Below are positions 5,920 through 64,000 of a DNA stretch of 64,000 nt, piece by piece. Location of the stretch: the NCBI GenBank assembly GCA_050084515.1, contig CM114271.1, forward strand, positions 31,496,001-31,560,000, in the 5' to 3' direction. The notes beneath the pieces were generated by a model. That model did not search any database. It was not told where the DNA came from and saw only the letters and a list, made by a program, of their open reading frames with translations. This stretch comes from Blasia pusilla. Its lineage: Eukaryota. Every line of letters begins with the position of its first letter. Positions within the stretch are counted from its first letter, which is position 1. The position numbers and the translations under genes are program-made.

Positions 5920-5951
<32 letters not shown>

Positions 5952-36433: not shown

Positions 36434-36914
36434 GTTGATTGTTTTGAGTTTTGACTCATCTCTTCATGATCCAGAGTAGATCTTCAGCTTCCCTGATTGC
36501 TCAAGCTATGGTGGATTATGAACAACCTTTTCTATGCAATCTGCTAAAGATCTTCAGCTTCTCCGATCCCCTATTGATCTTGGATGCTACTTTGCCATCC
36601 GAGTCTATAAACCCTAGCACAGGGTGAGGAGAAGGAAATCAGGTAGGCACCCTAAACACACAAGCATGAAGCAGGAGATGTGACAAACCCAATAACAGGA
36701 GAAGACGACGACGAAGTAGAAAAAGAAGAGGAAGCAGAAGAAGCATAGGAAAAAGAAGAGGGAGTAGAAGGAGCAGAAAAGAAAGAGAGGGAGGGAGGGA
36801 GGAGCAGGAGAGGACAAGCCATTTCCAGCCTTTAAGCCACTCACCACCCACGCAAGTGGAGCTTCTTGCAGTAGACAGATCGACCTCCTTTGACACCGAC
36901 ACACCCGGCTGCAA

Positions 36915-40040: not shown

Positions 40041-40259
40041 ATGGTAGTTTAGCTGCCGACCTGTGATTAGCAGCCATCCAGAATAGGCGCCACTCCAAGC
40101 CTCATTGGCATGTTGATTGTTCATTTTGGCTTGTGAATATTTACAACTTTTTGAGATAAATACGTCATTGAGAACATAATTTGCGTTCCAACATGAAAAA
40201 ATATCATAATTTTGCATACCAGGAAATAAATGGGCCACAAAAGACAATTCCATCCGACT

Positions 40260-43200
40260 TTATAAATTATGAGATGCGATATGACATTCTTTCAAAGCTT
40301 CCTCTGCCAAACTAATATAAAATTCTTCTTCCTCTGGGTTCCACTGGGTATCAGTCACAAGTCGTGCCAAGGATATGCCACTATTTGGCTCCTCAAAGTC
40401 TTCAGACTCTTCATTAGATTCAGACTTCCCATGAACAAGAGAAACACTCGGAAATACTGGACTATTTGGTATGGAATTAGAGGCGGTATTACCAAGATCC
40501 ATGGGAGTGGAAACATTCTCCATTATAGACTGCACCAAATTTCCCCCTGATACAACACTACCCTATACATTAAGTTCTTCAGTCGTATCTCTAGTCTCTT
40601 GGGAATATAAACTTTCAACTCCTGAGTAAAGCCTACTATGATTTCCATACTCAGAAAGAAACCGACTTGCATCGGGACATAAGGTATAGGTCTCCCTACA
40701 AGTTGGTCCGCTTGCAGCACTTGGCAAGTTTTCCAATTATGCCCTTGAAGTGCACAATGGCTACAATGTCTTTCAGAAGTGCGATCAATCCTTTACCCAT
40801 TTCAAATCGTTGGTGCCCTACACCCGTTAGGAATACCTAAAGGACCTCGCGGTGGGATATACGCATGTTGGCCACTCCCAACATCATCTTCATTCACTAA
40901 CTCTTCATGTACAGGATAAGAACTCTCTTCACCACCTCCTTGTCCTCTTCGCATCTTGCCACCTCTCCCACCAGGAATGCGCACATAACGATGTCTACCA
41001 TGCCAAACTGCAAGAATGGGAGGTCGAAAATCCCAAGATGGTATTAGTTCGTCACTCTTCACGACCGGTATACTGCTTTTGTAGATCTGCCTTATGAAGT
41101 CATTGGTCCAGATAACATCAAGAAGTTTCTGTGAGTCCATTCCAGTAATGACATCCCAAGCCATTACATGCGTACATGGCCAACAAGTATCTTGGAACTC
41201 TAGGCATGAACAACTGCACTTAGGATGCAAGCGGACATGAAATTGGTGCCTACTAGTTGTGGAAGTGACAAGTGCATTTGTTGCATCTGAGGCTAGTACA
41301 TCAAAACTTTGACAATTGGCTTCATTCTCTCGATAACGAAAAGTGCATAAGTAGTCAGTTTGTTGGAGAACTTCTCCGGGTGACATGCCTCTACTTTTCT
41401 TTCTGCGTAAGTTTTCATCATGTAATTCCATAACTCATGAGCAATGACAAGTGGAGATCCCTCCCTAATAGGTTTGATGGCGGAATTTATGACCTCTACA
41501 AGATTTGAACTCAGTTTGCCATAGCGTGGCAAAGGGAATGCACACCTCGCAAACTTCTCTGGTCCTATCTCTTGTATGTACGAAGCCGCATCAGCTATTT
41601 GTTGAATATGATGCCTTTCCAATTCGTTAATCCACATGTCATACATGGAAAACAAGACCCTCAATTGTCGTTAGCCGCCGCATAACTCTAAATAGCGCAA
41701 CTGAAAAATAATCCGTCATTAGCCACCGTCCTAAAATGATTGGAATTTAGATGCCGATTTAATCCTAAATAGCCTCGGTCCTAACAAGGTATCAAATTAG
41801 CAATCGTCCTAACTGTGAATAGCCTGTAGGGAATAGCAGCCGTCCTAAGTGTGAATAGCCGCCGCCCAATAAGGAATAGCAGCCGTCCTAACTTTGACTA
41901 GCCGCTGTCCTATAGGGAATAGCAGCCGTCCTTACTGTGAATAGCCGCCGTCTTATAGAGAATAGCAGTAAAAAATAGCCGCATCCTATGCAAAATACTA
42001 CCATTGAATATTCAAGACTCACATATGCAAACTGTAAGGAATAATGAAATGGATTGATTGCTTACTTCTCCTTGGTCCCGACATAAAGGCAGGCAGTGAA
42101 AAATTCTTCGGCAACTTTTCCATACCGTGTTGTCTCAAATGTTGGGCACACATGCTATGTATATTCTGGGGGAATATTGTATGCACAACGTGTAAAAGGC
42201 CCTTTAGTCTATCAAAAAAAAAAAACAATTTTGGGATCATTTAAGGCTAGGATGGCTTTCTTCAGATGTGCACAAAACCATTCCCATTCCTCATTGTTCT
42301 CGCAAGGAGATATGCCAAATGCCACAATGATCAAATTGGCATTTCCATCAAATATGGACGCAATGAAAATCTGCATGGGATACTTCCTATTCTTTGTATG
42401 GCATGCATCCAAGCCAACTACCTTTTGCACATAAGGAATGATGTTCTTCACGGCGGATGGACAAATAAATAGCCTCTTGAAGGTGGCAGATTCTAAATCC
42501 CAAACATCCCAAGCGGCGGTGGCAAAGGAGTAGGCTTCCTTTACTTCTTGTTTGAAAGAAGGAATCAAATGGAAACCTGCCCGTTCACCCTCATTCATCC
42601 AATCTCGACATATTTCTTTGCATCTCCACGCAAGAAAGTAAGTTGTTCGCTTCTTGTACGTCTGCAGAAGGACTTCTACAAGGCTACCTACAGGGATGCT
42701 AGGTTGATTTACAACCCTATCTGCTAATACCATTGTTAACCACTTTGCCTTGTGGGTAGGACCCCTCCATGTATGAATGTGCCCCGTACAAGTGTGTTTC
42801 AAATTACACACCGTTATCTCACATAGGCCTGTACTTGTATGCCGTTGGCAACGGACCCTCCACTCGCAAACTTCATCTTTACATGATATGCCATTCCCCT
42901 TCACTGAAAGTATGTACCTAGAAAATTGACCACATGCCCCATTCTTGGCGGTGGGGACTCTCGCTTCGCCGCTCTTTCTCCTTTTCTCCGCGGGAACGTC
43001 TAAGCTTACTCTAGTTTCTGAGAAAGAATTCTTGAAAATTGGCTGGTTAGGCCTCTTACTATGTTGAGGTCACCACTGGACCCCCATTCCGCATGCAAGC
43101 CTCGATATACGTGGGTCTTGAAATTCTTCACTATGTCCCCCATTATCTCCAACCGAGGGTCCACACACATTAACCGCAACTCGGTTGACATTAGCCGCCC

Positions 43201-43430
43201 TGCTATTTTTCGCTGTCCTCCCCCTAACATCGTCTGATTTTTTTCCGCTATGATTAGCAGCCGTTGAATATTCCTGAATATTTTCCTCCAATCCTCCGGT
43301 GCCGGACGTGTTGTTAATACCATGTACGCTTGTGGTTATGTCTTGCAAAGGTGAATGGCATACAAAACTACATTTCTTCACAAGAGTATCCTCCTTCTGA
43401 GGATACTGTCTATTTTTTGAAGTCTTCAAA
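40260..43430 (-). pseudogene. MuDR/Mutator-like transposase with SWIM domain (frameshifted)
   Basis: CEWRVRC...HTC, VVGLDACHTKNRK...DGNANLIIVAFG (42212..42904), HSMCAQHL, RYGKLSSNLVEVINS (41293..41664), CSCSCLEFQDTCWPCTH (40802..41431), C-terminal CSHC...H...C knuckle near 40720-40770. Confidence 0.9.
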
Positions 43431-43764
43431 GTGCTACAGGGTTTGTCCTCATTGAAAATAGGGAGACCTTTGGCTCTGATCTTTGCGCCAAATCTACATA
43501 TTCTAAGTCAATACCATTTCTTGCTGCGTGCGCAATGCTTTGCTTTATAATTCAGCGAGCACCAACAATCTAGTGAAAACTCAAACTCGTTGAAGCTGCG
43601 GAACACTTGCTTCAATTGTATCTGCTCGACATGCCTCCTTACTGCACATGATGACCCAAAGGTTGTTAATCAATCTAACTTTTACTACGGCTAATGACTG
43701 CGCCATGCCGATAAAAATCATAAATGCAAACTTACATTGTATCCACCAAATATCCACTACGGTG

Positions 43765-44545
43765 GCTATTGTGAGTAGGCTCACCTCTCAAAAGTACAAA
43801 ACAACTGCAATGACGGCTATTCAGAGTAGGCTCACCTTTCAGGGGTACAAAACAACTGCAACGGCTGCTATTTAGGCGGCTATTCTGAGTAGTATCACCT
43901 CTTAGGAGTACAAAACAACCGCAACGGTAACTATTTTGAGTAAGCTCACCTCTCAGGAGTACAAAACAACTGCAACGGAGGCTACTCTGAGTAGCCTCAC
44001 CTTTCAAGAGTAAAAAATTACTACAACGGCGGCTATTTCGGAGGCTAGTCTAGGTAGGCCAACCTCTCTAAAAAAAAATCTACAACGGCGGCTAATTCGG
44101 CGGCTATTCTGAGTTGGCTCACCTCTCAAAAGAACAAAACAACTACAACGGCGGCTAATTTGGTGGCTATTCTGAGTTGGCTCACCTCTCATGAAAACAA
44201 AACAACTACAACGGCGGCTAATTTGGCGGTTATTCTGAGTAGGCTAAGCTCTAAAGAAAACAAAAAAATTTCAAATGCGGCTAAGTCGACCACTCTTATG
44301 ACTAGGCTCAACTCTCAAGACAACAAAACAACTACAAGGGCAGTTAATTTGGAGGCTATTATGAGTAGGCAACCCTCTCAGGAAAACTACAAAAACTACA
44401 AAGGTAGCTAATTCGGAGGCTATATTGTGAGGAGGCTCAGCTCTCACGAAATCAAAAATACTGCAACGGCGGATATTTTTCCGGCTATTCTGAGAAGGAT
44501 CACCTCTCACGAAACGAAAAATCTACAACGGCGGCTATTTCGATT
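43765..44545. repeat. Subterminal tandem array, ~52-70-bp unit, about 11 copies
   Basis: Recurrent GGCTATTCTGAGTAGGCTCACCTCTCA...AAAACAACT(G/A)CAACGGCG; units are mutually similar with no unique spacers. Confidence 0.9.
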
Positions 44546-45386
44546 ATGGTGGCGGCTATTGCGACAATACTCATCGTTTCTGGATCAAATATCCATCTCG
44601 ACGGCTATTTTGACGACCAGTAAACCCTTAGCTTTAGAATCCGGCGACATGTTTACCTTCTTCTAGGCTGAACCCTCCGAGACAGGGATCATTCTAGGAC
44701 GTGGATGCTCGCCATAACTCGAAAGCAGCCGAAGACTCTCTTGATGGTGGCCTTCGTTCATAAGATCCGCAGTTTTGGTCTTTGCGACTTGAACCAAACA
44801 ATCCATTGTCATCCACAAGAAAATGTTGTCTGCTCAAGTCTGGAAAATCGTCATCAGTACACGAGAGGTCAGGATGTTTGGGTAGCTCGACACCATCCAT
44901 TCTCTTATCAAGATGATGAACAATAAACACTGATTAGTAAACAAATTAACATGTGCTAGAGAGTGTAAGCACGAGTGTTGATCACGATTTGCATGATCAA
45001 CAGTCCTAACTTGAGAGTGACAAACCCTAACTCGGGATTGTTCCTATATCCAAAACTTGTTTGCTATAGTAACTACGTAGAAGAACATTTGTACCAAGTG
45101 GTTCGAACTGACGTGGCAGTTGAAAGGGGCCGTTCAGGCAAGAGATTTTGTATGGGGACCGGTAAAGCAAAAAGAATCCGCATGGGGGCCACTTAAGTAA
45201 ATACCTGATATTGTTGCAGTTTAACTAGATTTCGAACCAGGCAGCCACCCATACTAGAGTAGGTAGCTCATCTACTCACACTCATGTCCATATGTAGGTA
45301 GCACCCTCAGGTAAGCAAGATACCGTCGGAAAACCCACAACCAAGTACCGATAAGATTAAAAGAGCAGCATTTAGGAACCTTTCAA

Positions 45387-48088: not shown

Positions 48089-48418
48089 TGTGACGTCTTT
48101 CAGGATAGATCGGCGAGATCTACTAGAGCGCCTTTGGAGATACTAGAAGATAGCCTCAGGAGGTCAAGGATGACATGTTGAGGCCGCAGGTAACTTGCGA
48201 GAGCAGTTTCCCCTTCGTTTTGGCTCATTTGGAGCCATATTGAGGAACTTACTATTTTGGGTAAGTTATTATTTTTGGTATAGTTGAATTTCTACTTTGG
48301 GAAGTGGCCCTTGACCCGCTACAACACGTCAAGAGCCAAGGAGGTGATCTGCGAGCACATGTTACCGAGGAGAGAGCTTGGGAGAGGGAAGGGGATATAC
48401 CTCCAAGAGAGAGAGAGT
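48089..48418 (+). mobile_element. Copy D, 5' terminal 330 bp (interrupted by copy B)
   Basis: TGTGACGTCTTTCAGGATAGATCGG... is the reverse complement of the copy A terminus (~5945-6274); homology resumes at 63267. Confidence 0.85.
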
Positions 48419-48726
48419 TGTCATGCACATACACATCGCTACACAACATACATCACTGTCACTGAACACACACACAAACACTCACGATCCCATGCTCACT
48501 TATGGCATACAAACAACGAAACAAGAAGTTACAAAATATCTCCAATCGCCCCTCTAGCTAGTGGTTAGGTCTCTCTAACTCCAGATAGCCATCTATCCCT
48601 ACCTACCATGACATACATCTCTCGAACGCTAAGAGCAAGAAGGCCGGGTGCTCGTGTGGCCCCATCGTTAGTCGCCTTCTTGTCATCCATGTCAGAGACA
48701 CAAGTCGGAATGTAGAAGTACCTACT

Positions 48727-51480
48727 CTATGTACATCTAGGACACATCCATCGTCCCTGAGGAACCCTAGTGAGAGGTGGCATCAAACATGCCATATACC
48801 ATCCTCTCGAACATCCATCACAGACTAGCATAGTGGCTGCATCACGGGCTGAACCACACAACATACATCATAAGCATGCAGGAACTATTGCTAAGCTTGG
48901 ATCAACTATCTCGTCAATGTTCGGAAGGTGATACGACGTACAGCTCAATGTATCCCGATGGTGCGCAATTGCCAAGTTCTCAAACGCCATGGGCATCACT
49001 CTCCGAAAAAATTCAGCCCTCTGAGAATATGCTCGTATCCATACATCACGGTCATCAAGGTTCAACACCTCACCAACATCTCGACGAATGGCCGCACGTA
49101 AATCTAGCTCTCGGCCATACAAAAGCAAGTACGGTGAGAAAGACGCTAAGGATGCCCGCCTGATGAATCTATATCCCATCACCAACCATAGATATTGTAG
49201 GTCCCAATCTCCTAGGTGATCTCTCTGCAAGCCATATTTGCGTAGTCCTCTCTTCATCGTCTGCACAACCCGCTCCGCTTGTCCATCTGCCTTAGGATGA
49301 TCCCGCGAAGTAGTGCGATGGTCGATCAGTGCCTGACCACACAAGGCTTGAAACTCCCCATGGAACTATGTACCCTGGTCTGTCAACACCTCAGCTGGTG
49401 CGCCGTAATGACTCAGCACTCGATCTAGGAAGGCATACACTATTCCCTCACTTGCTTTTTCAGGCAATGCAACCAACTCTATCCACTTCGAGAAGTGCTC
49501 GACCATCACCAACACATAACAACTATGGCGCTCCGTCAAAGGCAAAGGTCCTGCAAAATCCAAACTTCATCTATAACCTAAACCCATGATCAGGAGTGGA
49601 TGCAAATGTGGAGTCGGAAAATTGAACAATGCTCAGACTTGATCACACACCATGCTTATGAAAACTAACAACTAAACGTTAGTCTGCATGCCTCGCCACC
49701 AATACTGAATCTGAAGCAAGCTGTACATCCGCTTCACTCCAAAATGAACCAACTCCTCGTGAACATGATGCACCAAACGTGCTCTCTGCGAAGGATGAGG
49801 CACTACATGCACTCTACCATTCTCCCACACTCGCAACACATGTGTCCCCTCCCACCAAAACCGTCTGGCTCGCTGTAGGATCCGATCCCGGTCTCTAGCA
49901 CCCACCGTGCTTGCGACGCTGCCAGTACGCAGGTACTCCAAGATCACTCCATCGTCGTGAATGTCTCGGCCACCTGTGGTCTCCTCACCCGCCTCTAGAT
50001 CTAAGGACTCTCCATCAGACCTCGCCATCAAAGTCTCAGAAATTTGGCTCCCCATAGCCAACAAGCCTAAATAGGCTCACTCTTGGCACCAACTCCTCAT
50101 CACTCTCACCATGCCAACGAGCTCCTGTCGCATCTCGCTGAATCGAGCATGGATTACGGCTCAAACCATCTGCATCCTGGTTTAGCGTCCCAGGTCCATG
50201 CACCACCTGGAAGTCATACTCCTGCAACAAAAGAGCCCACCTTGCAAGCTTCCTTGTAAGCTTGTCGGACTCCATCAATCACTTAAGTGGCTGATGATCA
50301 ATAATGATGGTAAAGGGATTCTTGAATACATAACACATGAAATGTGCGACAGCCCACACTACAGCCAAGCACTCACTCTCATACGAGCTATACTTTGCCT
50401 CTACAACGTTGTTTGAGCGACTAGCATAAGCCACCATGAACTCTCTACCATCATCGTCATGCTGGGTGAGCACGACTCCAAGCCCCAACATGCTCCAATT
50501 GGTATGCAACTGGAAAGAACGCCCCCTGATCGATCTTCTCAATATGGGCGTGGACGTCAATTTTTCCTTGAGCATCTGAAATGCTCTCCTTGTTTCAGTT
50601 CGATTGCGAAGACACTTCTGATCCACCTTGGTCATCAAGGTGAGCGGCTTCGCAATCGAACTGAAACCTTTGACGTACCGTCAATAGAAGTTCGCCAATC
50701 CCATGAATGCACAAACTCGACTCATATCTATAGGGCGTGGAATGCATGAAATAGCCTCTACTTTTGTTTGTTGCACACCAAGGCCTTGAGGGTATATTGT
50801 ATGACCCAAGGACTCAATCTTGTCGTAGAAGAACTTGCACTTTCCTGGATGTAGCTTCAGCCTATGTAACTGCAATCGTCGAAACACCTCCTCTAGATGT
50901 CGCTCATGCTCCTCAACCGTGGTGCTAAAGACTACAATGTCATCAATATAACACCTAGAAAAATCCAGACCTGCCAAGATACTATCCATGATCCTCTCGA
51001 ACTCAGCCGGGGCATTCTTTAACCCGAATGGTAAGAACCGCCACTAGTACAAACAATCCTTCCCGTGAGGATCGATGCCCCAAAATGCCATCTTCTGCGT
51101 GTCCTCTAATATGATATGTAGCTGATGGTATCCGGCTCGCAAATCCAATGAAGTGAAGAAATTTGCATGCCCAATCGCATCAAAGATCTCTTCAAGGGTG
51201 GGCATGGCATACCTATCGGACTTTGTCCGCCGATTGATAGGTCGGTAATCTCCATACATTCTTCTATCCGTCTAGTTGTCATGCACATCCTTCTTGGCGG
51301 GCATGACAGTGGCAGATGCATACTCTCCATGCGACATCTCCACTACTCTTGCGCCAACCAAGTCTTGGCTCCTACTCTAAATCAGAGCTTTCTCCATGTC
51401 ACTATACCTGTAGGGTCGTCGAAAGATCGGCGTGTCACTCGATAACTCAATGCGGATCCATGGACCCTTCAGCGTACCTA
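48727..51480 (-). pseudogene. RT-RNase H-integrase-PHD of copy B (degraded)
   Basis: DYRPIN, LDLRAGYHQ, YIDDIVV (RT); LHTNWS, YASRS (RNase H); DFAGPLP, VLTDQGT, ADGQAERVVQT (IN); CMLC...CDGC...WYMAC...WMCPRC (PHD, 48730-48867, His changed to Tyr). Confidence 0.92.
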
Positions 51481-51884
51481 AATCATGCATACTAAATGCA
51501 AAAAACTCCTATAACTCCTAAGGAATTGGTGTATCCGGCGCAACTCTCCTTCGTCAACTTAGGGTTCATATCTGGCTCCCAAGTCTCCATCGTGACTACG
51601 GTAGGACTCTCCGGCGCGGGTGTGAGTGGTTGCTATGGTGCAACCCCGTCTCGGACAACAAAACTCTCATCTCCACGTGCAGTACCCGGAACCACACTCA
51701 ATGCTATGGCTATCATCTCCTGTCATACCTGCAAAACATCCCAAGAAGTCTAAGGATGTCTCTCCCGATCACCCTTGGTGTGTCGATCTCCTTGGATCTC
51801 ACCCCCAGCCATTGTCTCAACCGTCTCAGTAGGCATGGGGCTAACCAATGCAACATCTATGATCTGTTGCATCCTCAAACGACG

Positions 51885-52835
51885 TTACTCATCTGCGCCT
51901 AAGCTTAAAATCCATGTCAAGCAGTTCAGGTCCATTGCCTGACCCAAGCAATGACGTCGCGATGCTTCTGATAGTGATGGTACTGCCGTTACTCCTGTGG
52001 AAAATCCCATCGCTTGCTCTCGCTCATCGACATTGGGCTCCACCAACCTCTTTATCTGGTCATCCCAAACCAAGCGAGGTCCGCCCTCCTTGAATGCATA
52101 GGAAGCGGGAAAACTTATGAATGTGGGAAAGGCTGCCCGTGGCATGCCAATCCTGTTGACCATAGTCAACGGCTGTCGATCATAATGCCTCACTGCCTGT
52201 GATCGACGACATGGATCTAGAATAGAATCCACCAACAAATCAGAGGGGCACTCCACTCTAGCATACGCCCTCTGCAAGACCTCATGTAGGACCAAGTTAG
52301 TCCACCACATGCAAATGCGCGCGGTGTGCTCTAGAATCTACACTTGACGCATCCAAAAACACTGCCGGGCCGATCCATGCGTGCACCTGATGTGCACTTG
52401 TCACCACGTGGGACCTCAAATCGTCCAAAATTGGCACATTCTCCAGAATGTATGTTGGAGAACGAGATTGAAGCTCCTGCAAGTGTCGCAAAATCCGCAT
52501 CATCTCCCAAAACAACTTCGACCGAGAGTCAGCTAATCCGCTACCCGGTCCAGCACTCGACTGGCCCTGACATGGCCAACCAGCAATGACCAAGTCTATG
52601 GTCCCTACCCGCTCCAAGTCCTTTGCCCCCACCAATGAAATGCCCCTCGGTAGGGAACTCTGGTAATCCTGAATGGCGGACGCAGACAACAAGTCGGGAA
52701 AACGAAGGCGTAACTGTGCCACATGGTGAAGTGAAGGGCATCTTGCAACATCATCAATCTCCACATACAAGTACTGCTGCACGCGCACTCCAGCCTGCAA
52801 AATAGCAGCTAACCCTTGGATGCACCACGCAATCG
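51885..52835 (-). pseudogene. DNMT3-like methyltransferase domain of copy B
   Basis: YVEIDD (motif II), DLVIAGWPCQG (catalytic PC), ILENV (motif VI), SRAHRA, WWTNL, EREQAMGF...RRHCLGQAMDL. Motif I is lost by a short deletion relative to A and C. Confidence 0.9.
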
Positions 52836-53379
52836 GGGTGGTGTCCAAAGGGGTCATAGCAACACTCCTGGCTACCTGGGGTTCTTTTGACCCATCACAC
52901 TCTAGTGCAAACGTCTCACTCCACGCGGTCTGCACATGCTCAATGGCTGAGCGTCAAAGCTCCTCAGTCGAGCCCAAAAGTGGCCTCTCTCTTCCATGGA
53001 CTGATGCGGCTACCATGACACTCCTCTCCATGGAAATGTCACAAACGGGAGTATCCTCTGCATGGACATGTCCCTCAATCAAATCACTAGCCCAAGTGAT
53101 GGCACTGCTAAATGCTGCTAAGGTCGCCATCTCTCCTCGTCGTCGCTCGATCACTGCACCTGTGAATCAAACGGGTAATAAGCTAAGGTGCCCATCACCT
53201 GGTCTGTATGATGCTGAATCCTCCCAGTAATCCAGGAAAAACCCCATCGGGTATAACACTGCTCCACCAACCAAGACGTTGTACGACTCTACATCAGTCA
53301 CTATCGCCTAGGGGACTCATCTGTAGGATGTCCCGAGCGAATCCTCACCACGACCTCCTCTCGTGTGATATACTGTGTG

Positions 53380-55797
53380 GTACTCACTACACCCAAGGAT
53401 GTCTGTATCCACAATGGACAACGCTCCACATCGGCTCTCGTCAAGCTCAATCCTCTGAATGACGCTTTCCCCAACATCAAGGGTCCAACAAGACGCGCTG
53501 CGAACTAAAAGCTCTACCTTCTAGACTCACCAACTGGAAAACCTATCCCCAGTTATCCAGTAACACAACACGAGGAGAAGCCATGGTACGCTCTATCGTG
53601 GGTCTAGCAGACATCTCCACCATCCTAACAGCCGCAGCCTGCCATGAATCTGACGTGGACGGCCTGAGCATCCGCTCCAAGGGCAGGTCCATCACCTCCT
53701 CTGCAATCACCTATGAACGTGATGCAAGAACTCCAACTTCACGCTCACATAGCATAGCGTCCAGCCGAAACACCTTAGCGGGCGTACCTCCCAATGTCAT
53801 AACATCAGAAGCAAAAAATAGCGGAGCACGGTACACCATTGTGGCCGCCCCCAACATCATATTCGACACATGCTCCTCCTGAGCATCAACAATAGGAGTC
53901 ATCGCACTCATTTATTCCATTCTCCTCCGTGCCTGCACACCAATAACATCATAAACTCTTCGGGAACTCTGATCAAGACCCGTCGATGGGGTCCTCATCG
54001 CCTCGGACAATGTCAAAGACTGAGGAAGCCTAGACTATTTCTTAGCTTCCCCTCGTTGTGGATCCAACTATGCCACTGCTCCATGCGTCACAACAGCGGG
54101 GGCCTCCATCTGGACAACCCCGCACATCCAACTAAGATCCTCCATATCTCTGGCTGCTCCATATGATGTCGATGCCACGGATCCGGCATCGGGTAATCTC
54201 AATGCCATAGTTGCAATCTGATCTTGTAGCTGCTGTATTTGAGCAGCCATCCCAGCCTCACGCCCGGAATCTCCCTCGATGCGTCTAGGGATTGGAACTC
54301 TACCTCCTCCACGGGCAGCTCCACCACCCTGTCGGGCAGCTCTAGCTCCTTGCCCCCCAATAGAACCACTTGGTGCACGATCTCTAGGCCCACCCCAACC
54401 GGCTAGTCGCTCTGGTGCCCTCTCTGGCCCTCGGTCCGGAGTAACTCAGGGTGTAAGCTGAAACACCTCGCGCATGTATGACCATACCTTTGATAATAGT
54501 CACATTGATAACCTCTTGGTGCAGCACCATCTCCTCCTCCATGCTGAGGCACACGTCCATGACCCTGACGAGTGCAATCACATAGATTATGGGTTCCATC
54601 ACATGACCAACAAGTAATCATAGGCGGCTGCTGCTGAGCTGCATATGAAGACACAAGTCTTTGTGGCACGGCCTCTTGGTATCCTCCCTGAGCTCGTGGT
54701 GCCACATTCAACCTATCTCGGAGTCCACGTTGCTACACTCGTGGTGCAGACACGATTGTCTGCACCACCAGTGCAGCAACCCGATAGTGATCCACCGTAC
54801 ATATTGATTGGTCCTATCACTTGGGCGTACGAGATGGACGACCGGGCTAGAGGACTGCGTAGGTTTTTGGGTGCTCTAGGCACTATAGAGCTACATGACT
54901 TCATTTCCGAGTTTAGGAGTTGGTGTGACTCACAGCGGGCTAGGAAATGTAGAGAGTTCAACCCGTTTACAACATGGAACGGTATGTTCCAGCATGTAGA
55001 GGGGGCGCCCATGGACGATTACCATAAGTTCTCCCACAGATATGCCCAAGAGATTGAGGCATGGCGACTCTACTATGACCCACACTATATGTCATGGACG
55101 GAGCCGTTCCTTGATGAGGAGGTGGAGTCAGGAGAGGCTACTTCCTCTTCCACTAGTGATGTTTTAGGAGGGGTCACTCGCACTGGAGCAATTGCACCAT
55201 CTGGTCGGGTTTGTCCCAGGTTCAACCCCGTGGTTGATTTCTTCTTCCAGGAGAGGAAGTAGCCTCTCCTGACTCCTCCTCCTCATCAAGGAACGGCTCC
55301 GTCCATGACATATAGTGTGGGTCATAGTAGAGTCGCCATGCCTCAATCTCTTGGGCATATCTGTGGGAGAACTTATGGTAATCGTCCATGGGCGCCCCCT
55401 CTACATGCTGGAACATACCGTTCCATGTTGTAAACGGGTTGAACTCTCTACATTTCCTAGCCCGCTGTGAGTCACACCAACTCCTAAACTCGGAAATGAA
55501 GTCATGTAGCTCTATAGTGCCTAGAGCACCCAAAAACCTACGCAGTCCTCTAGCCCGGTCGTCCATCTCGTACGCCCAAGTGATAGGACCACTCAATATG
55601 TACGGTGGATCACTACCACACTCCTCTACACGCTCCCCCTGGTCTAAAGACGACATAGAAGGAGATGAAGGTGGTCTCTCACGTGGATACCTTCGAAACC
55701 TCGTACCACTCCTGGTAAACCCTCCAAAGCTACTCTCAGGTCCACTATCTCGCCTCTCAAAATCCCGAAAGGACGCCGTGATGGGCCTCGTGCCCAT
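53380..55797 (-). pseudogene. Gag and protease region of copy B (rearranged)
   Basis: ORF 55222..55797 is gag N-terminus-like; knuckles CWSCDGTHNLCDC and CDYYQRYGHTCARC (54403..54711); protease region has a small deletion at the active-site motif. Confidence 0.7.
54785..55615. repeat. 364-bp inverted duplication within gag of copy B (103-bp spacer)
   Basis: 54785-55148 is the reverse complement of 55252-55615. ORFs 54645..55262(+) and 55222..55797(-) share a ~120-aa stretch with 2 differences. Confidence 0.95.
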
Positions 55798-57499
55798 CTC
55801 ACATGATCACTCTCAATCTCGAAAGTAATCCCTCAATCACTAAAACTAAATTTGCGGCACTCAATTTACACTCTCTTACCGAGACATGTGCTGTGCGGCA
55901 ACAAGCGGCGTGGTGTGGCAATCGGCTATCATCCTATCATCTCATGAAAAAGACATACCCTCAACTCTGGACATCCCACACAAATCTATGTCCCCTTAAT
56001 CCATACATCAATGATGCTCTAAGCATCTGCACGAAACCCAATATCCTCAAATAACTGCCAAATACCCGTAATTCCCTCACACTTGCAGGGTAAGAGACCA
56101 GAATGGGTAACCTGACAATAATGTGGATGTCGCTCCTCAAAAACTACAATCTCTACCCCAACTCGGTCGCGAAAACAACTCCTCCAATCAGCAAGTCGTA
56201 CTTCTCTCGTACTGAGACTCCTCAAACCTCCTCGATGCGCGGTGCAGGTCTAGCGGTCCGGTGCGGCACTGGCGGCACGGAATGGCTATAAACGGCACGG
56301 CACTCGGGAATGGGGTGCGGAACTCGGCAACATGCCCTCCTCAATCAGAAATTCACACGCCCTGCTCCTAAGTGAAGGAACGGCTCCGCGATCGAGATGG
56401 TGCGGTGCGGCAATCAGCGGCACATTGCGGCTACGGATGTCACGACAGAGTACTCGATCGTCGTCGAGCGGCTACCAATCACAACATATTAGCATGAAAT
56501 GAAAACTCAAACACCATAACCCGAGGTCACCTATCATCAGTGGTTGATGACGAAAATTTGATGACGGTGGCGGCCAAAAAATATGAGGTGGTGGTGCAAG
56601 TCAGAGAATTAACAGTTGTCGTGGAAGATCCTCCACTCTGTAATGGCGGCAATGGCAACCAAGGGTGGACAACGGCCGAACCTGGCTTTGAGTAGTGTTA
56701 GGCACCGGCGGTAGCCGATAGTGGACGGTGGACGGTGGACCGTTGATGTTTACTATGAAGGCGATGGCCGGCGGCGGCTTGGCGGGTGGTTTAGGGTTTG
56801 AACAATTTAACCCTAAAAATCGCTTAGCAATGGCAGTTTTTCAAGATTGACTATAAATTTTTGCTCGCAACTCCAAATTGTGCAGCGTCTATTGCACAAG
56901 GTGCAAAATTTGACGATCTACGACAATATCAAAAAATATTTTAAATTGGACATTCCAATAAAAACTGACAGGGATTGTCGTAAAGCCCAACGTCTCTTTC
57001 TCATACATAAAATCGTTGGAAGAAATTAGCGCGGAAGCGCTGATTTCTCCCAAAAAAAGTCTAAAACCTATGGGAGCAAATCAGCAAGCTACATGGTGCT
57101 CCCGAAAGCATCGGCATAGAGCAATCCGCCCCCATACTCAATTCCTATAAAAAATTGGGCAGCGCTTCCGCGTGCCACTCTCATGTACAAAAAATCAGCA
57201 AAACAAAACAACAAACTGGCTCGGTTCTTGCTCTGGTGAGCACTCCCATGAACCATGAAGCGGTAAACACGGTCCCCCAACCTGCACCAAACATCGAGCA
57301 ACCAGCGAGCTCCCCCATGAAGCTCTCTCACTCACTCATTCTCTCTTTGTAAAATAGATCCAATCTCTCTCATGTCACATCTGAGTAGCCGATAGGCCGA
57401 GATCTATCGTGGATAGGGCGTAGGAGCCAGCGGACTATCTTGAGTGTAACTTTGTCCCACAGTGTCGGATGAGGTTGAGGATAGGTCCATTGTGTCAAG

Positions 57500-57871
57500 A
57501 ACGTCGTTTCAGACGACTTTCATATTGAGGTCTTTTACAGCCGGGTGACTTGTTGACCAAGTCACCTGCCCTTGGTAACCTATGCGCGCAGTTACCAAGG
57601 GAAGGGCTATTCTTAGGGTAAGAGCCTTTTGGCTCTTCCCAACCTATATAAGAGAGGAAGATGGCTTTCCTAAGCCATCTTTCTCATGTTGGGCCGTTGG
57701 AGCACCTCCCTTGTATGTGTGTGAGCTAGGATTAGGGTGCTAGCGTCTGGATTCCTTGATAGCACAGGGTGGACGAGGCTCGATATGCTGATGTAGATTG
57801 AGGAGTGGAGTTTTAGGCCGGGTGTGCCGTTTTTACTATTCTTTATTTCTAGGTCAGGTGACGGTCGGATG
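57500..57871 (+). promoter_or_regulatory. Structured leader of copy C: four hairpins, TATA box, candidate leader intron and ATG
   Basis: Hairpins 57544-57566, 57569-57601, 57620-57637, 57658-57681; TATATAA 57645-57651; polypyrimidine tract plus AG at 57851-57852; in-frame ATG at 57869. Confidence 0.5.
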
Positions 57872-58249
57872 AGTCAGTTATCCGTGCAGTTTGCGGGACG
57901 AGGTGGTCGATCACGAGGCGAGTCTGTGACCACGTTGGCGGCTTTCACAGGTAGTGTTAGCTGGCCAGGAGAGTTGTTGGAGGGGAACGCACATGCGGAG
58001 GATGTCCCAGTAGCGGATAGTCCCACGGAGAGACAGGCCATGGCGGGTGTCTCTTCCCATGTTAGCGATGCCTCTTCACCATTATGGGGTACGACTCGAG
58101 AGCTACAGAGAAGTGCCGACGACCTCGTGAGGCAGGCGTGGAGTCATGTTTTTATCCCAGAGCAGCGAGAGTCACGTGGCGATCGGGCTCTTGGAATGGA
58201 GACGATGACTCCACTAGATATCACACCTGTTGTGTGGCAGTTCCCAGAG

Positions 58250-59200
58250 GAGGGTGTTAGATCTCTTCGGAGGGATTAGCACCGGATTGGCGGCCATATT
58301 GCAGGCGGGCATACGGGTGCATCAGTACCTTTATGTGGAGAGAGATGAGACCCAAGCAGTATCATTACGTCACGTGGCGAGATTGGTCCGAGGTATCCTG
58401 AGTTGTTGTTGGTATCTGCGAAGACGGGATACCAAAGATACACTACCCGCCGACATATCTTTGGTGGGGCGCAGGATCTGGATAGAGTTGGCACCATTCA
58501 TTTGGTGATTGCTTTGGATGGCCATGTCGGGTCATTCATCGGTGGCCGAGGATTTGGATTGCAGGATCCGAGGTCGGGATGTTTTGGGAGATCTTTGCGA
58601 GTAGTACGACACTTGCAGGAGAGTCGATATATTCTCCAAAGATACATTTTGGAGAACGTGCCGTTGTTGGGCGATACTCGTGCACGTGTGATGACGAGTG
58701 TACATCGGTGAGTCTGGTTGGGGGACCATTTGTGTTGTTAGATGCAGCGAGAGTTGGGTCACGTGCCCATCGCCCACGCATCGTGGTGGACAAACCTGAT
58801 GCCATCAGAAGTACCGAGTCGAGCCTATAGTGGAGTTCAGAGAGCACCACATCTCACAGTGGATGCTATTTTGGACTCAGGGCGTCGATCTCAGGTGGTG
58901 ACACGCGATGATAGACCACCGTTGGCCACGGCCAATAGGGTGGGGAGTTGAGGGAAGCCTTACCACGTTGGTGAGCTTCCCAAAGATCCCATGCCTTTCG
59001 CCGGGAGGGCAGGCATGATTTGGGATGAGGTGACCGGAGTATTGGAGGAGCCTACAGTAGATGAGCGCGAGCGCGCCATGGGGTTCACTACCGGTACTAC
59101 GGCGGTGCCAGGGATAATTGAGGCATCACAGAGATAGGTGTTGGGGCAGGCGATGGACCTCAACTGTCTCACATGGATAGTCAGCCTAGGTATGGCTGAG
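58250..59200 (+). pseudogene. DNMT3-like methyltransferase domain of copy C
   Basis: Motif I RVLDLFGG (ORF 58230..58508), GGATGGCCATGT (GWPC) at ~58516, ILENV (ORF 58403..58711), AHRPR/WWTNL, ERERAMGF...LGQAMDL. Confidence 0.88.
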
Positions 59201-62200
59201 CAGAGACGGATGCGAGTGTCATCCATGCCGTCACGTCCACGAGTTGGACCACCGCCTCTGTGGTCAGATAGGCATTGGCTAGGGGCGAGACGAGGAGAGA
59301 TAGGCACCCATGGACTTCCTGGGACGTCGTTCGAGCAGAGAGTGCGAAGGCGGCTAGAGTAGCACATGTTCATTTTTCGGATGTGGAGCATGGTGTAGGA
59401 GGTCGAGTGGAGTGGTGTTATGAGGTGGCTAGGGTTGCTACATAGCAACCAAAGCCGGAGGTTGCGTCCTCTCCGAGTGAGGTCACGATGGAGACTTGGG
59501 AGCCTGTGATAGGTCTCAAGTTGATAGGAGGAGAGCGACGGCGAGTTCATAGGTTTCTGAGAGGGCATGTTAGTTGTTTTGCCTTCAAGATGAGAGACTT
59601 GGACGCACGCTGAAGGGTCTCGGATACTAATTGAGTTGGCTAGTGATACGCCGATCTTTTCGTCGACCCTACTGGTATTCTCATATGGAGCGAGCCTTGA
59701 TTCGGAGCAGGAGTCAAGACTTGTTGGAGGCAGGACTTGTGGAGTTATCACATGGGGAGTATGCATCTGCCACAGTCATGCCGGCAAAGAAGGATATGTA
59801 TGGCAATTGGATGGATAGGCGGATGTGTGGAGATTACCGTCCTATCAACCGATAGACGAGGTCGATCGGTATGCCATGCCTACTCTCGAGGAGATCTTTG
59901 ATGCGGTAGGGCATGCAAAGATCTTGAGACTTTAGATCTCCCGTCTTTGGCTATCATCGCCTTCCTATCAGGTTGGAGGATGGGAGAAGACAACATTCGG
60001 GGATAGATCGGTTCTCGAGAGATTGCTTGTATCGATGGCGGTTCTTACCATTTGGGTTGAAGAACGCTGCATGGAGTTTCGTAGAGATCGATGGATAGGA
60101 TTCAGGTGGCTTGGATTTTGTACGATGTTATATAGATGATATTCTTATCTTGATTCCACGGTTGAGGAGCATGAGCGACACTTGAGGAGGTGTTTCGGCG
60201 ATTGCAGTTACATGGACTGAAGTTACATCCAGCAAGTGCAGATTCTTTCAGAGCAGATTGAGTACTTGGGACACACCATATACCCGAGTGGGTTAGGCGT
60301 TCAGACGAAGGTAGAGGCTATTTGCAGATTCCACGCCCTCTGGATGTGAGTCGAGTCCGAGCATTTCTTGGATCGTAACTTCTATCGACGGTATGTCAAG
60401 GGTTTTAGTGCGATCGCAAAGTCTTTGACCTTGTTGACGAGACTTGATCAGGTGTGGTTGTGGGGAGATGATCAGGAGCGAGCATTTCAGGAGCTCAAGG
60501 ACATGTTGACGTCCTCACCCATTTTACAGAGACCGGTTAGGGGTCGCCCATTCCAGTTACATACGGATTGGAGCATGTTGGGTCTAGGAGCAGTGCTTAC
60601 TCAGAGGGATGACGAGGAGAGGGAGTTCGTTGTGGCTTACGCGAGTCGATCGAACAACATTGCAGAGGCAAAGTACAGCTCCTACGAGGGAGAGTGCTTG
60701 GCTGCAGTGTGGGCCGTGGCACATTTTAGGTGCTATTTATTTGGCAACCCTTTCACACTTATCACTGATCATCAGCCGTTGAAGTGGTTGATGGAGTCCG
60801 ACAAGCTTACGGGAAAGCTTGCCAAGTGGGCTCTATTACTACAGGAGTATGAGTTTGAGGTGGTTCATAGGCCAGGTTGGCTGAACCAAGATGCGGATGG
60901 GTTGAGTCGTAACCCATGTCCGAGTCAGAGAGACGTCACGGGAGCTCGATGGCACGGAGAGAGTGATGAGGAGATGGTGCCCGGTTGGCATGCATCTGCC
61001 TATCTTTGTTGGTTGACTATGGCAGGTCAGCCACAGATGATGACTCCAGTGGTGGGATTGGATGATGAGTCTTTGGATCCGGAGGTTAGTGAGGAGGCGA
61101 CAGGTGGTCGTGATATCCATGACGACGTGGAGGTTGTGGACTTCTTGCGCACTGGCGTCATTGCGAGTACAGTGAGTGCTAGGGAGCGGGATCGGATCCT
61201 ACAGAGAGCCAAGAGGTTCAGGTGGGAGGGGACTCACATTTTGCGGGTATGGGGAGATGGTAGGATACGAGTGGTACCTCATCCTTCCCAGCGAGCACGT
61301 GTAGTGCGACATGCCCATGAGGAGTTGGGACATTTCGAGTAAAGCGCATTTACGAGCCTTACTCTAGGTTCAGTATTGGTGGCGCGGCATGCATACTGGG
61401 GTACAGCAGTTTGTGGCCAGATGTATGGTATGTGACAGAGTGCGAGCATCCTTCAATGCTCCCACTCCGCAGTTACATCCTTTGCCGATTATGGGTTTAG
61501 GTTATCGGTGGAGTTTAGACTTTGCGGGACCTTTGCCATTGACAGGGCGTCATCATAGGTACGTGTTGGTCATGGTGGAGCATTTCTCCAAGTGGATAGA
61601 GTTGGTGGCACTACCAGACAAGGCGAGCGAGGGAACAACTTATGCGTTTCTAGATCGTGTGCTTAGTCACTTTGGTGCACCGGCGGAGGTGTTGACCACT
61701 GTGGTACCGAGTTCAGGGGAGAGTTTCAGGCTTTGTGTGATCAGGCGTTGATAGATCACCGCACCACGTCCAGGGATCATCCTGAGGCGGATGGATTGGC
61801 GGAGAGAGTGGTACAGACGGTGAAGAGAGGATTGCGCAAGTATGGCTTGCAGCGGGGACAGTTGAGGGAGTGGGACCTACAGTTGCCATGGTTGGCTATG
61901 GATTATCGCTTTAGTCGGAAGGCATCCTTGGCGTCATTTTCACCGTACTTTTTGCTCTTTGGGAGAGAGCCAGATTTACCTGCAGCGATTCGACATGACA
62001 TGGCGGAGGTGTTAGATCTTGATGATCCAGATGTGTGGGTGCAAGCATGTTCTCAGAGGGCAGAAGTTTTTTGTAGAGTTATGCCTATGGCCTTTGAGAA
62101 CTTAGCTATTGCCCAGCATAGAGATACATTGAGGTACGCGACCATAAGTGGAGGAGGTTATCGTCCAGGGATTAAGAGGTTTCATCCTGGAGATTACGTG

Positions 62201-62413
62201 TATTTACAGCAAGCGGCACCCACGACGCTAGATGTCACTGCAGGGCGCACTATCCTACGTGTGCGCGAGGTATTATGGACCGGAGTCCTCATGTTGGAGG
62301 GACGAGATGGTATGGTTTGGAAGGATCATGTGCGCAATTGTGCACCATGTCATCTTCCGAACGTAGATGGGACGGTGGATCCAAGCTTGGCAGTGGTACC
62401 TGCAGGCTTGAGG

Positions 62414-62551
62414 TGTATGTTGTGCGGATCTGCGAGGGGTGCAGCCACCATGTTGGTATGTGATGGTTGTTCTCGAGGGTGGCATATGTCATGTCTGACC
62501 CCCCCTCTTGATGTGGTTCCCACGGGACGATGGATGTGTCCGAGATGTGTA
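62414..62551 (+). other. PHD finger (C4HC3) fused to the integrase C-terminus
   Basis: CMLCGSARGAATMLVCDGCSRGWHMSCLTPPLDVVPTGRWMCPRC; all eight ligands present and in frame with the integrase core (ORF 61733..62554). Confidence 0.95.
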
Positions 62552-63266
62552 TAGGGTAGTAGGTCATGTCAGAGAGATGTGATATTTTCTATCTGGAGTT
62601 AGGGGGATCCACCTGCCAGCTAGGGGGGCGGTTGTGTGATCTCCATGTATATGTATGAGTTCATTTTTGTACATGTGTGGATCGACCTGTGTGTGGGGAA
62701 GATCAGTGTTGTGTGGTGTAGATGTGACGAGCGATGTATGTTGTGTAGCGATATGTATGCGCACGACACTCACAACACCATAGTTCTCACATGTGTGCAC
62801 TCTCACATGTCTCTCTCAATGTCAAACCAAACCCACTCTCCTAATGAGAGGCTTGGGTTACACACACAAGGCAAGCAAGACCATAGCTCCGCCGCCTCAT
62901 GCCAAGAGGTTCAACAAAGAGAGAATGAGCTCTCAAGCTCTCTCTCCTTGAGGTATACCCCTCCCCTCTCTCAAGCTCTCTCCATCGTAACCTATGCTCC
63001 CAAGTCACCTCCTTGGCTCTTGACATGATGTAGGAGGTCAAGGGACACTTACCAAAATTAGAAAGTTGATCATACACTTAAAATGATATTTATCTTAAAT
63101 AGTAAGTTCCTCTATATGGCTCCAAATGAGTCGAAACGAAGGGAAAACGTGCTCTCTCAAGTTTCCCGGGGCCTCAGTAGGTCATCCTCAACCTCCCGAG
63201 TCTGTCCTCCACTACTCACAAAGACGCTCTACAAGATCTCACCGATCTATCTTAAAAGACGTAACG

Positions 63267-64000
63267 GCTCATTCTCTCTTTGTTGAACCTCTTAGCATAA
63301 GGAGGCGGAGCTATGGTCCTCCTTGCCTTATGTGTGGAATCCAAGCCTCTCATTAAGAGAGTGGGTTTGGTTTGACACGAGAGAGAGTGCACACCATGGA
63401 GAGCTTGGTATGAGAGCTTGTTGGTGTTGATGAGAGATTCCACTGAGAAAATGAGTGAGTGAGAGAGCTTCAATGGAGGAGCTCGCTAGTCACTCGCTAT
63501 TGGTGCACGTTGGGGACCATGTTCCCCACTCAGCGGCTCAAGGGAGTGCTCATTGGAGCAAGAGCCGCTCGATCTTGCTGTTTTCATCGCCAATTTTTCG
63601 TGTGAGAGAGTGGCACGCGGAAGCGTTGCAAAAATTTGGTTGGCAATTGAGTATGGGGGCGGTTTTCCCCACGCTCTTGGGAGCACCTTGTAGCTTGGTG
63701 GTTGTTGTGTTTATAGGTTTGCAATTTCTGTTGGGAGAAATCAGGGCGGAAGCGCTGCCAAATTTCTTGTAGGATAGCAGATATATTAAAGGGCTCTACC
63801 ATACTCCTTGTCAATTTTTATTGGAAGGTCCGATTGAAAAGAAATTTTGGATGTTTTCGTAGATCGTAAAGCTGTGCAGTGCACGCTGTGCAATTTGGAG
63901 CTATGAGCAAAAAGTTATGACCAATTTTGCAAACTGCCAATTTTTAGGGTAAAAATTGTCAAACGCTATACCAGCTGTTGCCGTCACTGTCATCGCCGTC
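63267..64000 (+). mobile_element. Copy D continued (5' leader; runs off the right edge)
   Basis: Reverse complement of copy A ~5920 back to ~5150; resumes where 48418 stopped. Confidence 0.85.

What the first reader, a model, noticed from the sequence alone, without database searches (positions are those of the whole stretch)
48089..64000. Russian-doll nesting: each copy inserted antisense into the 5' terminal ~500 bp of a relative
Seen: D (+) is split 330 bp from its 5' end by B (-); B is split ~495 bp from its 5' end by C (+). Both target sites are CT/GA dinucleotide-rich, and orientation alternates each time. Inference: two successive hits in a ~170-bp zone of a ~9-kb element suggest self-targeting, possibly through the PHD finger or self-deposited methylation, which would also disable the resident promoter.
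Basis: partly seen in the sequence, partly recalled or inferred. Interest (0 to 1): 0.8.

Follow-up and report, generated by a model that had tools for sequence, protein, structure and literature searches.

The report
Nested split-LTR methyltransferase retrotransposons
Three dead copies of an abundant plant retrotransposon sit one inside another at their promoter ends; the family does favour that spot somewhat, but not the antisense direction, and its oddly cut terminal repeats suggest it inserts from a DNA circle.

Summary
The nest is real: C (clean 4-bp duplication) sits 497 bp into B, and B 330 bp into D. All are Gypsy elements with a DNMT3-like methyltransferase and a PHD-tipped integrase. 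Full copies read A-internal-B-A-B, like KnitGypsy-Dnmt3 of Klebsormidium.

Tested in the own genome, antisense preference fails (3 antisense, 5 sense in A repeats; 11 vs 17 in all family hosts). CT/GA-tract targeting also fails (4 of 187 flanks vs 1.8%). A modest excess in the promoter repeat A holds: 7-8 of 158 insertions against a 0.7-1.5% baseline (3-7x), with a cluster between TATA and start; coding regions are hit at baseline.

The stronger result is the anatomy. A self-primer pairs with a site just after A1, a polypurine tract precedes B1, and both repeats are homogenised. So reverse transcription should make B-A LTRs, yet integrated ends lie inside them at a palindrome. Best reading: integration from a circular cDNA, which is inferred. 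One product a symmetric circle predicts is missing (0 of 52).

This scan noted the permuted LTR and the methyltransferase before in other genomes; my reading was formed first.

The parts
48089..48418 (+). Element D, first 330 bp of repeat A1 (promoter part; starts TGTGAC; TATA-like at 48396-48401)
   Evidence: 80% to window element A; TATA position from the sequence
48419..63266 (-). Element B (family P), form A-internal-B without the second A-B; interrupted by C; target duplication degenerate
48419..48546 (-). Repeat B of element B (128 bp, ends GCATGACA)
48547..48561 (-). Polypurine-tract-like motif directly before repeat B
   Evidence: same motif in families P and Q
48730..49900 (-). Integrase and C-terminal PHD finger of B, broken by stops and frameshifts
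   Evidence: six-frame translation; 74% DNA identity to C's region
50093..51502 (-). Reverse transcriptase and RNase H of B, broken
   Evidence: tblastn with Marchantia protein P0005, 63% identity; Pfam on P0005
51909..52950 (-). C5 cytosine methyltransferase domain of B (PCQ and ENV motifs), DNMT3-like, broken
   Evidence: Pfam PF00145 E 7e-12; weak PDB hits led by DNMT3A (E 5e-4, level with HaeIII); liverwort relatives 47-58%
53313..54630 (-). gag (two zinc-knuckle-like motifs) and protease region of B, broken
   Evidence: translation; tblastn with P0005 residues 35-213
56451..57349 (-). 5' untranslated region of B
   Evidence: 80% to element A
57335..57350 (-). Self-primer binding site of B, complementary to 62914-62929
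57351..57372 (-). Last 22 bp of B's repeat A1, including one copy of the target duplication (57369-57372)
57373..62768 (+). Element C (family Q), form A-internal-B, internally deleted, youngest of the three
57373..57851 (+). Repeat A1 of C (starts TGTCAC; TATA 57645-57650; self-primer 57676-57689); primer site, gag and most of protease missing after it
57852..62554 (+). Methyltransferase, RT, RNase H, integrase and PHD (62414-62551) of C, broken
   Evidence: Pfam RT_RNaseH and PHD; rve; tblastn
62616..62630 (+). Polypurine-tract-like motif of C
62631..62768 (+). Repeat B of C (138 bp, ends GCACGACA)
62769..63266 (-). First 498 bp of B's repeat A1 (TATA-like 62954-62957; self-primer 62914-62929; target duplication 62769-62772)
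   Evidence: 86% to element A
63267..64000 (+). Element D resumed, starting 1 base before its predicted transcription start and self-primer; rest of A1 and 5' UTR; traced about 1.2 kb past the window
   Evidence: 72% to element A; L072
1..6274 (-). Element A (family P), reference with an uninterrupted A1; its 3' end outside the window has the full B-A-B layout
   Evidence: L071

Best explanation
The nest is three old insertions of Gypsy-DNMT3-PHD retrotransposons with split LTRs. SHOWN: full copies are A1-internal-B1-xx-A2-B2 with TG...CA ends and 4-bp duplications. A primer site right after A1 is complementary to the sequence about 28-31 nt below the TATA box inside A. A polypurine tract precedes B1. 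A1/A2 and B1/B2 are homogenised within a copy. INFERRED: the RNA primes itself as Tf1 does, and reverse transcription yields ordinary LTRs of the form B-xx-A. The cDNA ends are joined, and integrase cuts the palindrome GACA-xx-TGTC inside the upstream LTR, so the integrated copy is circularly permuted. One-LTR circles, or later B1/B2 recombination, give the A-internal-B form seen in B and C. Targeting has no strand rule and only a weak site preference, but is biased about 3-7-fold towards A repeats of related copies, mostly the TATA-start-primer-site stretch. The likely cause is accessible promoter DNA rather than sequence self-recognition. The antisense alternation in this window is chance.
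For: Layout and duplications. TSD of 4 bp perfect in 14 of 29 two-ended copies and within one mismatch in 24; lengths 3, 5 and 6 perfect in 1, 0 and 0. Self-primer match of at least 10 nt in 13 of 20 P copies (one locus counted twice) and 9 of 11 Q copies, against 0 in controls; the two families use different sequences, each complementary to its own start. The helix is in both MFE and centroid (whole-region z -2.1). The same PPT occurs in both families. The spacer is 2 bp in 50 of 51 junctions. B1/B2 share minor alleles: 49 vs 17.6 expected in P, 14 vs 4.9 in Q. A1-A2 identity is 0.975-0.985 within and 0.95-0.97 between copies, 5 of 5. A-repeat hosts: 8 of 158 (7 without doubtful L008); internal 20 of 158 vs 13% baseline; unrelated LTR 3 of 158 vs 1.7%. 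Genome-wide TATA-start zone: 6-10 family hits vs 1.5-2.9 expected; control zone in A 0 family hits; integrase zone 1 sure plus 2 undecidable vs about 1 expected by hand estimate.
Against: A symmetric two-LTR circle should also be cut at the downstream site to give A-B-A-internal-B. That form was not seen: B-xx-A was followed by B in 52 and by the primer site in 0 (6 unclassified), and 0 of 40 A1 copies were preceded by B. An extra rule is needed, for example that the upstream junction is double-stranded first. No circle was observed. The A2/B2 joint varies only by about 1 base in a T run, which is weak support for end joining. The enrichment rests on few events and a rough baseline (3 A copies in 200 kb; 1.5% from terminus counts). 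At a 3% baseline it is not significant (p 0.1-0.2), and the strictest TATA-zone count against the highest expectation gives p 0.07. Sampled copies were the best matches to window queries, not a random draw. Survival bias is not excluded.
Confidence: 0.6

Rival explanations
1. Chance nesting in a repeat-rich genome. The family covers about 15% of the genome and A repeats 1-2%, so a few nests like this arise at random and this one was picked for looking orderly. Any excess in A is survival bias.
For: 126 of 158 sampled insertions are in no recognised family sequence, and internal hits equal baseline. No strand bias. The baseline for A is rough.
Against: 7-8 hits in A against 1.2-2.4 expected (p 0.01 to 2.5e-5). 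A's share of family-host hits is 0.26-0.29 against 0.10 (p 0.006-0.017). Hits cluster in the TATA-start zone but not in the two control zones.
Confidence: 0.3
2. One reading: specific antisense self-targeting to CT/GA tracts in the family's 5' end, guided by the PHD finger or by methylation the element deposits itself.
For: Both window events fit. Four further antisense family hits lie in the GA-rich TATA-start zone (L199, L244-L246) and three just after the primer site (L257-L259). Mean CT/GA dinucleotide share next to junctions is slightly raised (0.28 vs 0.25, p 0.008).
Against: Sense hits are as common (5 of 8 in A, 17 of 28 overall; in the TATA-start zone 2-3 sure and up to 6). CT/GA-rich flanks are 4 of 187 vs 1.8%. 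C and B belong to families with unrelated A repeats. An unrelated tRNA-primed LTR family also hits the zone (L247, L251). The Klebsormidium enzyme showed no activity in yeast, which the authors call inconclusive (PMC5890265).
Confidence: 0.07
3. The split-repeat layout is made without a circle. The RNA runs into B2 and an extra template switch, as proposed for PAT-like elements, builds a linear A-internal-B-A-B cDNA whose ends are processed normally.
For: It explains the missing A-B-A-internal-B form at once (0 of 52). Retroviral integrases are established to use linear DNA (PMC11054761 passages).
Against: The only PPT lies before B1 and the only primer site after A1, which fixes primed ends at B start and A end, not at the TG...CA termini. 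B2 carries B1's variants from its fifth base onward (7 of 7 at one Q site). The internal junction keeps both integrase ends with a 2-bp spacer.
Confidence: 0.3

Closest known systems
KnitGypsy-Dnmt3 of Klebsormidium nitens (de Mendoza et al. 2018, PMC5890265; passages and one results part read)
   Same: Gypsy pol with a DNMT3-like domain; terminal repeats arranged as in DIRS elements (A-coding-B-A-B) although the domains are Gypsy.
   Different: Here about 10,000 repeat copies in a 390-Mb genome (estimate), with nearest protein relatives in liverworts. PHD was not found in that paper's main text (0 occurrences). In the passages I read it gives no primer site, PPT, TSD, mechanism or target analysis; its supplements were not seen and may bear on this.
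PAT/TOC/Kangaroo/Ngaro split-direct-repeat retrotransposons (PMC4157794, PMC8969392; passages)
   Same: A1-internal-B1-A2-B2 layout.
   Different: Those encode a tyrosine recombinase and leave no target duplication. These encode a DDE integrase (rve) and leave 4-bp duplications with TG...CA ends.
Tf1/Sushi and plant Tcn1 self-priming Gypsy elements (PMC4600332, PMC6317226; passages)
   Same: Primer site complementary to the 5' end of the element's own RNA; Tf1 also favours Pol II promoter regions.
   Different: They have ordinary LTRs at both ends, and Tcn1 elements are chromoviruses. These have permuted LTRs, a PHD finger and a methyltransferase.
DIRS-1 of Dictyostelium (PMC7192593, passage) and plant LTR autoinsertion (PMC6911290, abstract)
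   Same: [quoted passage not shown]
   Different: In 12 plant genomes nesting favoured 3' UTRs and LTRs were not commonly hit. Here the excess is in the promoter repeat, and coding regions are at baseline.
Two-LTR circle-junction model of retroviral integration (Panganiban and Temin 1984, as told in PMC11054761; passages)
   Same: Integrase acting on a symmetric junction in a circular cDNA.
   Different: That model was rejected for retroviruses. Here the palindrome is a template-encoded site inside the LTR with a 2-bp spacer, not the end-to-end joint.

Membership tests
Ty3/Gypsy LTR retrotransposon | Domain order PR-RT-RH-INT with DDE integrase | tested here: met
   (Ty3 Gag-Pol hit)
Ty3/Gypsy LTR retrotransposon | TG...CA termini and 4-6 bp target duplication | tested here: met
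   4-bp TSD perfect in 14 of 29, within one mismatch in 24
Ty3/Gypsy LTR retrotransposon | One complete direct LTR at each end | tested here: not met
   A1 alone at the 5' end, B1-A2-B2 at the 3' end
Ty3/Gypsy LTR retrotransposon | Primer site and PPT abut the integrated LTR ends | tested here: not met
   Both exist but abut A1's 3' end and B1's 5' start; the TG...CA ends lie at the B/A junction
KnitGypsy-Dnmt3 kind (streptophyte Gypsy-DNMT3) | C5 methyltransferase inside Gypsy pol | tested here: met
   PF00145 between protease and RT
KnitGypsy-Dnmt3 kind (streptophyte Gypsy-DNMT3) | A-coding-B-A-B repeats | tested here: met
KnitGypsy-Dnmt3 kind (streptophyte Gypsy-DNMT3) | Methyltransferase of the DNMT3 clade, common descent with the Klebsormidium element | tested here: inconclusive
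   PDB hits led by DNMT3A but weak and level with HaeIII; a Closterium relative exists; no tree built and no Klebsormidium sequence compared
KnitGypsy-Dnmt3 kind (streptophyte Gypsy-DNMT3) | Enzyme methylates the element's own cDNA | not testable with these tools
   PCQ and ENV motifs recur in sampled copies; no activity data
PAT/Ngaro tyrosine-recombinase retrotransposons | Tyrosine recombinase and no target duplication | tested here: not met
   rve integrase and 4-bp TSD
Tf1/Tcn1 self-priming group | Primer site complementary to the RNA 5' end | tested here: met
   the start is predicted from TATA spacing, not mapped
Tf1/Tcn1 self-priming group | Chromodomain at the integrase C-terminus | tested here: not met
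   PHD finger instead; no chromodomain hit in Pfam
Tf1/Tcn1 self-priming group | RT phylogeny within the clade | not tested
   no tree built

The most novel reading that the evidence does not exclude
This is an LTR retrotransposon lineage whose DDE integrase must use a circular cDNA, cutting a palindrome inside its own LTR (the circle route abandoned for retroviruses). It is also steered to the promoter and self-priming region of related copies, so that new insertions tend to knock out older ones and the family limits itself.
Probability: 0.25. Interest if true: 0.82.

Novelty: new variant of a known kind. Interest (0 to 1): 0.52.

Why it matters
The nest alone is ordinary and its antisense pattern is chance. 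What matters is the element. If the permuted ends come from integrase cutting a circle, this is a natural, abundant case of a route rejected for retroviruses, and it would explain a repeat layout that was noted in Klebsormidium without a mechanism in the parts I read. It also shows methyltransferase-bearing Gypsy elements covering about 15% of this genome, with relatives in liverworts, whereas a 2019 review (PMC6338049, passage) says such elements are absent from land plants 'such as tracheophytes'. A bias for LTR promoters would run against the pattern reported for other plant LTR elements (PMC6911290, abstract). Tools that require two matching LTRs would probably miss or mis-date these copies (inference).

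Tried and rejected
LTR-less element: my first reading of B and C; rejected, since most copies carry B-A-B at the 3' end and only 5 of 27 non-window PPT-preceded B ends lack A2.

Tyrosine-recombinase element: rejected (integrase, TSD).

Antisense rule and CT/GA-tract targeting: rejected.

H3K4me3-guided promoter targeting by the PHD: unlikely. 44 of 47 sampled fingers have Gly, and none Trp, two places before the His ligand, where methyl-K4 readers have a cage Trp (recalled). The best PDB matches are PHF12, CHD4, KDM5 and PHF21A fingers.

Inverted copies L008 and L113 as proof of cDNA ends: withdrawn after reading the junctions; they fit inversion between self-primer and primer site.

Rows dropped or moved before counts: 4 window loci; duplicate loci; L221 (tail-to-tail, not inside A); the left end of L178; L082, L152 and L203 moved to the unrelated LTR class. 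Of the 22 hits: six copies of an unrelated repeat (2 read), five random-looking or unread hits, two unread hits that may be antisense at the primer site, and three antisense hits after the primer site were left out of the TATA-zone count. L247, L251 and L260 were removed from family counts because their terminus belongs to the unrelated LTR family. L249, L250 and L254 were kept as ambiguous (insertion or deletion).

The baseline is 20 stretches of 10 kb on the three largest contigs only. The missing A-B-A-internal form was counted in held loci, not genome-wide.

Troyka, recalled as having split repeats, has no such term in its paper. Literature searches found no paper giving a mechanism for split-repeat Gypsy elements; 'KnitGypsy' occurs in one paper only. 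Subscription papers and Repbase were not searched.
Full report
1. The observation. A self-comparison of the window and piecewise alignments to element A, whose A1 is uninterrupted, confirm the nest. D(+) starts at 48089, stops at 48418 and resumes at 63267. B(-) fills 48419-63266. B's first 498 bp (63266-62769) and its continuation (57372 downwards) are colinear with A and separated by C(+), 57373-62768. C has a perfect 4-bp duplication; B's is degenerate. C belongs to a second family (Q) with an unrelated A repeat and 74% pol identity to B. It has lost the primer site, gag and most of the protease through a deletion seen in 0 of 29 other loci. D is traced for only about 2.3 kb. Best relatives over the first 300 nt are 97.7% (C), 90.6% (B) and 89.3% (D), which fits the order but does not separate B from D.

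2. What the elements are. Translation, Pfam and tblastn with a Marchantia protein give gag, protease, C5 methyltransferase, RT, RNase H, integrase and PHD, all broken in these copies. The methyltransferase's closest named proteins come from Calypogeia and Marchantia (47-58%) and Closterium (38%); the search covered longer proteins only. PDB hits are weak and led by DNMT3A. In the own genome (390 Mb) full copies read A1-internal-B1-xx-A2-B2. Three full Q copies read at both ends have matching 4-bp duplications. Among 29 copies with both ends in one locus, 14 have a perfect 4-bp duplication and 24 are within one mismatch. An exact 17-base terminal motif occurs 4,385 times, which scales to about 9,600 P-type B ends. 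B and C lack the second A-B; that form is 5 of 27 among non-window ends. This layout with Gypsy domains and a Dnmt3 was reported for KnitGypsy-Dnmt3 (PMC5890265; passages and results part 3 read; supplements not seen). A 2026 preprint refers to 'streptophytes (Gypsy-DNMT3)' (passages).

3. Cis signals. Directly after A1 lies a 13-16-nt stretch complementary to the sequence 28-31 nt below a TATA motif inside A. The match is at least 10 nt in 13 of 20 P copies (one locus counted twice) and 9 of 11 Q copies, against 0 of 31 for control windows. The two families use different sequences, each matching its own start. A fold of one Q copy closes this helix in MFE and centroid (z -2.1). This is the self-priming arrangement described for Tf1 and Tj1 (PMC4600332, passages) and predicted for plant Tcn1 (PMC6317226, passages). 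A shared polypurine tract precedes B1 in both families. B1 and A2 are separated by 2 bases in 50 of 51 junctions, forming a GACA-xx-TGTC palindrome. B1 and B2 share minor alleles far above permutation (49 vs 17.6 in 33 P copies; 14 vs 4.9 in 18 Q copies). A1-A2 identity within a copy exceeds that between copies in 5 of 5. By standard LTR logic (established knowledge) the reverse-transcribed LTR therefore runs from B start to A end, and the integrated TG...CA ends lie inside it.

4. Mechanism (inferred). Joining the two cDNA ends and cutting the palindrome of the upstream LTR after CA on both strands gives A-internal-B-xx-A-B. A one-LTR circle gives A-internal-B, and cutting both sites or later recombination gives solos. 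Against this, a symmetric circle should also yield A-B-A-internal-B, and none was found: 52 B-xx-A junctions were followed by B, 0 by the primer site and 6 were unclassified; 0 of 40 A1 copies had B before them. A possible reason is timing, since the upstream junction becomes double-stranded long before the downstream one; this is untested. The circle-junction route was proposed and then rejected for retroviruses (PMC11054761, passages). A linear route with an extra template switch remains a serious rival.

5. Target test. From six searches (the 30 best loci of each) 162 distinct elements gave an outer terminus, 158 after removing four window loci. Hosts were: none recognised 126; family internal 20, or 21 with L221; A repeat 8, or 7 without doubtful L008; an unrelated LTR 3. 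The baseline from 20 evenly spaced 10-kb stretches is internal 13.0%, A 0.73% (3 copies) and unrelated LTR 1.7%; terminus counts put A at up to 1.5%. A is thus 3-7-fold over-hit (p 0.01 to 2.5e-5), but the excess is not significant if A were 3%. Orientation is 3 antisense to 5 sense in A and 11 to 17 in all family hosts. CT/GA-rich flanks are 4 of 187 against 1.8% in distal windows, although the mean share is slightly raised (0.28 vs 0.25, p 0.008). The site preference is a weak palindrome.

6. Genome-wide exact patterns. A 3' terminus within 30 nt of the TATA-start zone of P-type A gave 5 antisense hits and 22 raw hits for the sense anchor. After reading 17 of the loci, family hits in the zone are 4 antisense and 2-3 sure sense, up to 6 with ambiguous ones. 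That is 6-10 against 1.5-2.9 expected (p 0.07 at the strictest). Two further zone hits come from an unrelated ordinary LTR family with 5-bp duplications and a tRNA-Met-type primer site (motif recalled). Three family copies sit antisense just after the primer site. A control zone in A gave 0 family hits. An integrase-zone control gave 1 sure and 2 undecidable among 15 raw matches, against about 1 expected by hand estimate. B lands 1 base before D's predicted start and C 20 bases before B's primer site, so both probably disabled their hosts (inference).

7. PHD and methylation. The finger best matches PHF12, CHD4, KDM5 and PHF21A domains, and none of 47 sampled copies has Trp at the cage position. 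From recalled knowledge this suggests binding of unmethylated H3K4, which does not explain a promoter bias. Self-methylation could not be tested; the Klebsormidium domain was inactive in yeast, which its authors call inconclusive. Self-insertion is known for DIRS-1 (PMC7192593, passage) and plant Gypsy families, though there LTRs were not commonly hit (PMC6911290, abstract).

8. Novelty and verdict. Eight literature searches found no mechanism for split-repeat Gypsy elements and no report of their target bias. The scan holds no notes on this genome and nothing on nesting, but two notes from other genomes describe the permuted LTR and the methyltransferase. They agree with a reading recorded earlier and are not independent evidence. 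The element is a new variant of the Gypsy-DNMT3 kind whose anatomy points to integration from a circle (about 0.6 for the whole reading). Interest 0.52.

Noticed in passing
window 3066-4805: Fragments of an unrelated ordinary LTR (about 1025 bp unit, 3213-4238, plus a partial tandem copy) inserted antisense in element A's 5' region. Solo copies elsewhere have 5-bp duplications and one is followed by a tRNA-Met-type primer site, yet its termini closely resemble those of the split-LTR families.
   Followed up: partly
window 48419-63266 and 57373-62768: Both nested elements are of the less common A-internal-B form (5 of 27 elsewhere). Several other inserts in A repeats also end with a lone B (L246, L253, L258).
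   Followed up: partly
L249, L250, L254 (also L198): Copies reading B, then only the part of A from about the TATA-start zone onward, then B. These are either sense insertions in the TATA-start zone or deletions of the promoter part of A2.
   Followed up: partly
L008:1300-1630, L113:1800-2030, L129:1800-1860: Inversions or deletions bounded by the self-primer and its binding site, as if that short inverted repeat recombines.
   Followed up: partly
L246, L258: A further split-LTR-like family with a different B end and related integrase/PHD region inserts in family P's A repeat and just after its primer site.
   Followed up: no
window 54640-55800: Inside B's 5' region a stretch of about 190-450 bp occurs in both orientations, and open frames of about 200 aa lie on both strands; the plus-strand one had no Pfam hit.
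   Followed up: no
window 10918-11484 and 42212-43069: MULE transposase fragments; D is inserted in a region of old DNA-transposon remnants.
   Followed up: no
window 36900-44550: Long purine-rich (GA) arrays at 38470-40050 and 51/63-bp tandem arrays at 43760-44540, with GCCGCC-rich subrepeats, possibly subterminal repeats of a large DNA transposon.
   Followed up: no
window 5920-5953: Element A has an expanded (CT)n tract just upstream of its predicted start; other copies show expansions up to about 100 bp in repeat A (L013).
   Followed up: no
L215 and L217: Two places 16.8 Mb apart on contig C4 share the same element end and flank, suggesting a segmental duplication or an assembly duplicate.
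   Followed up: no
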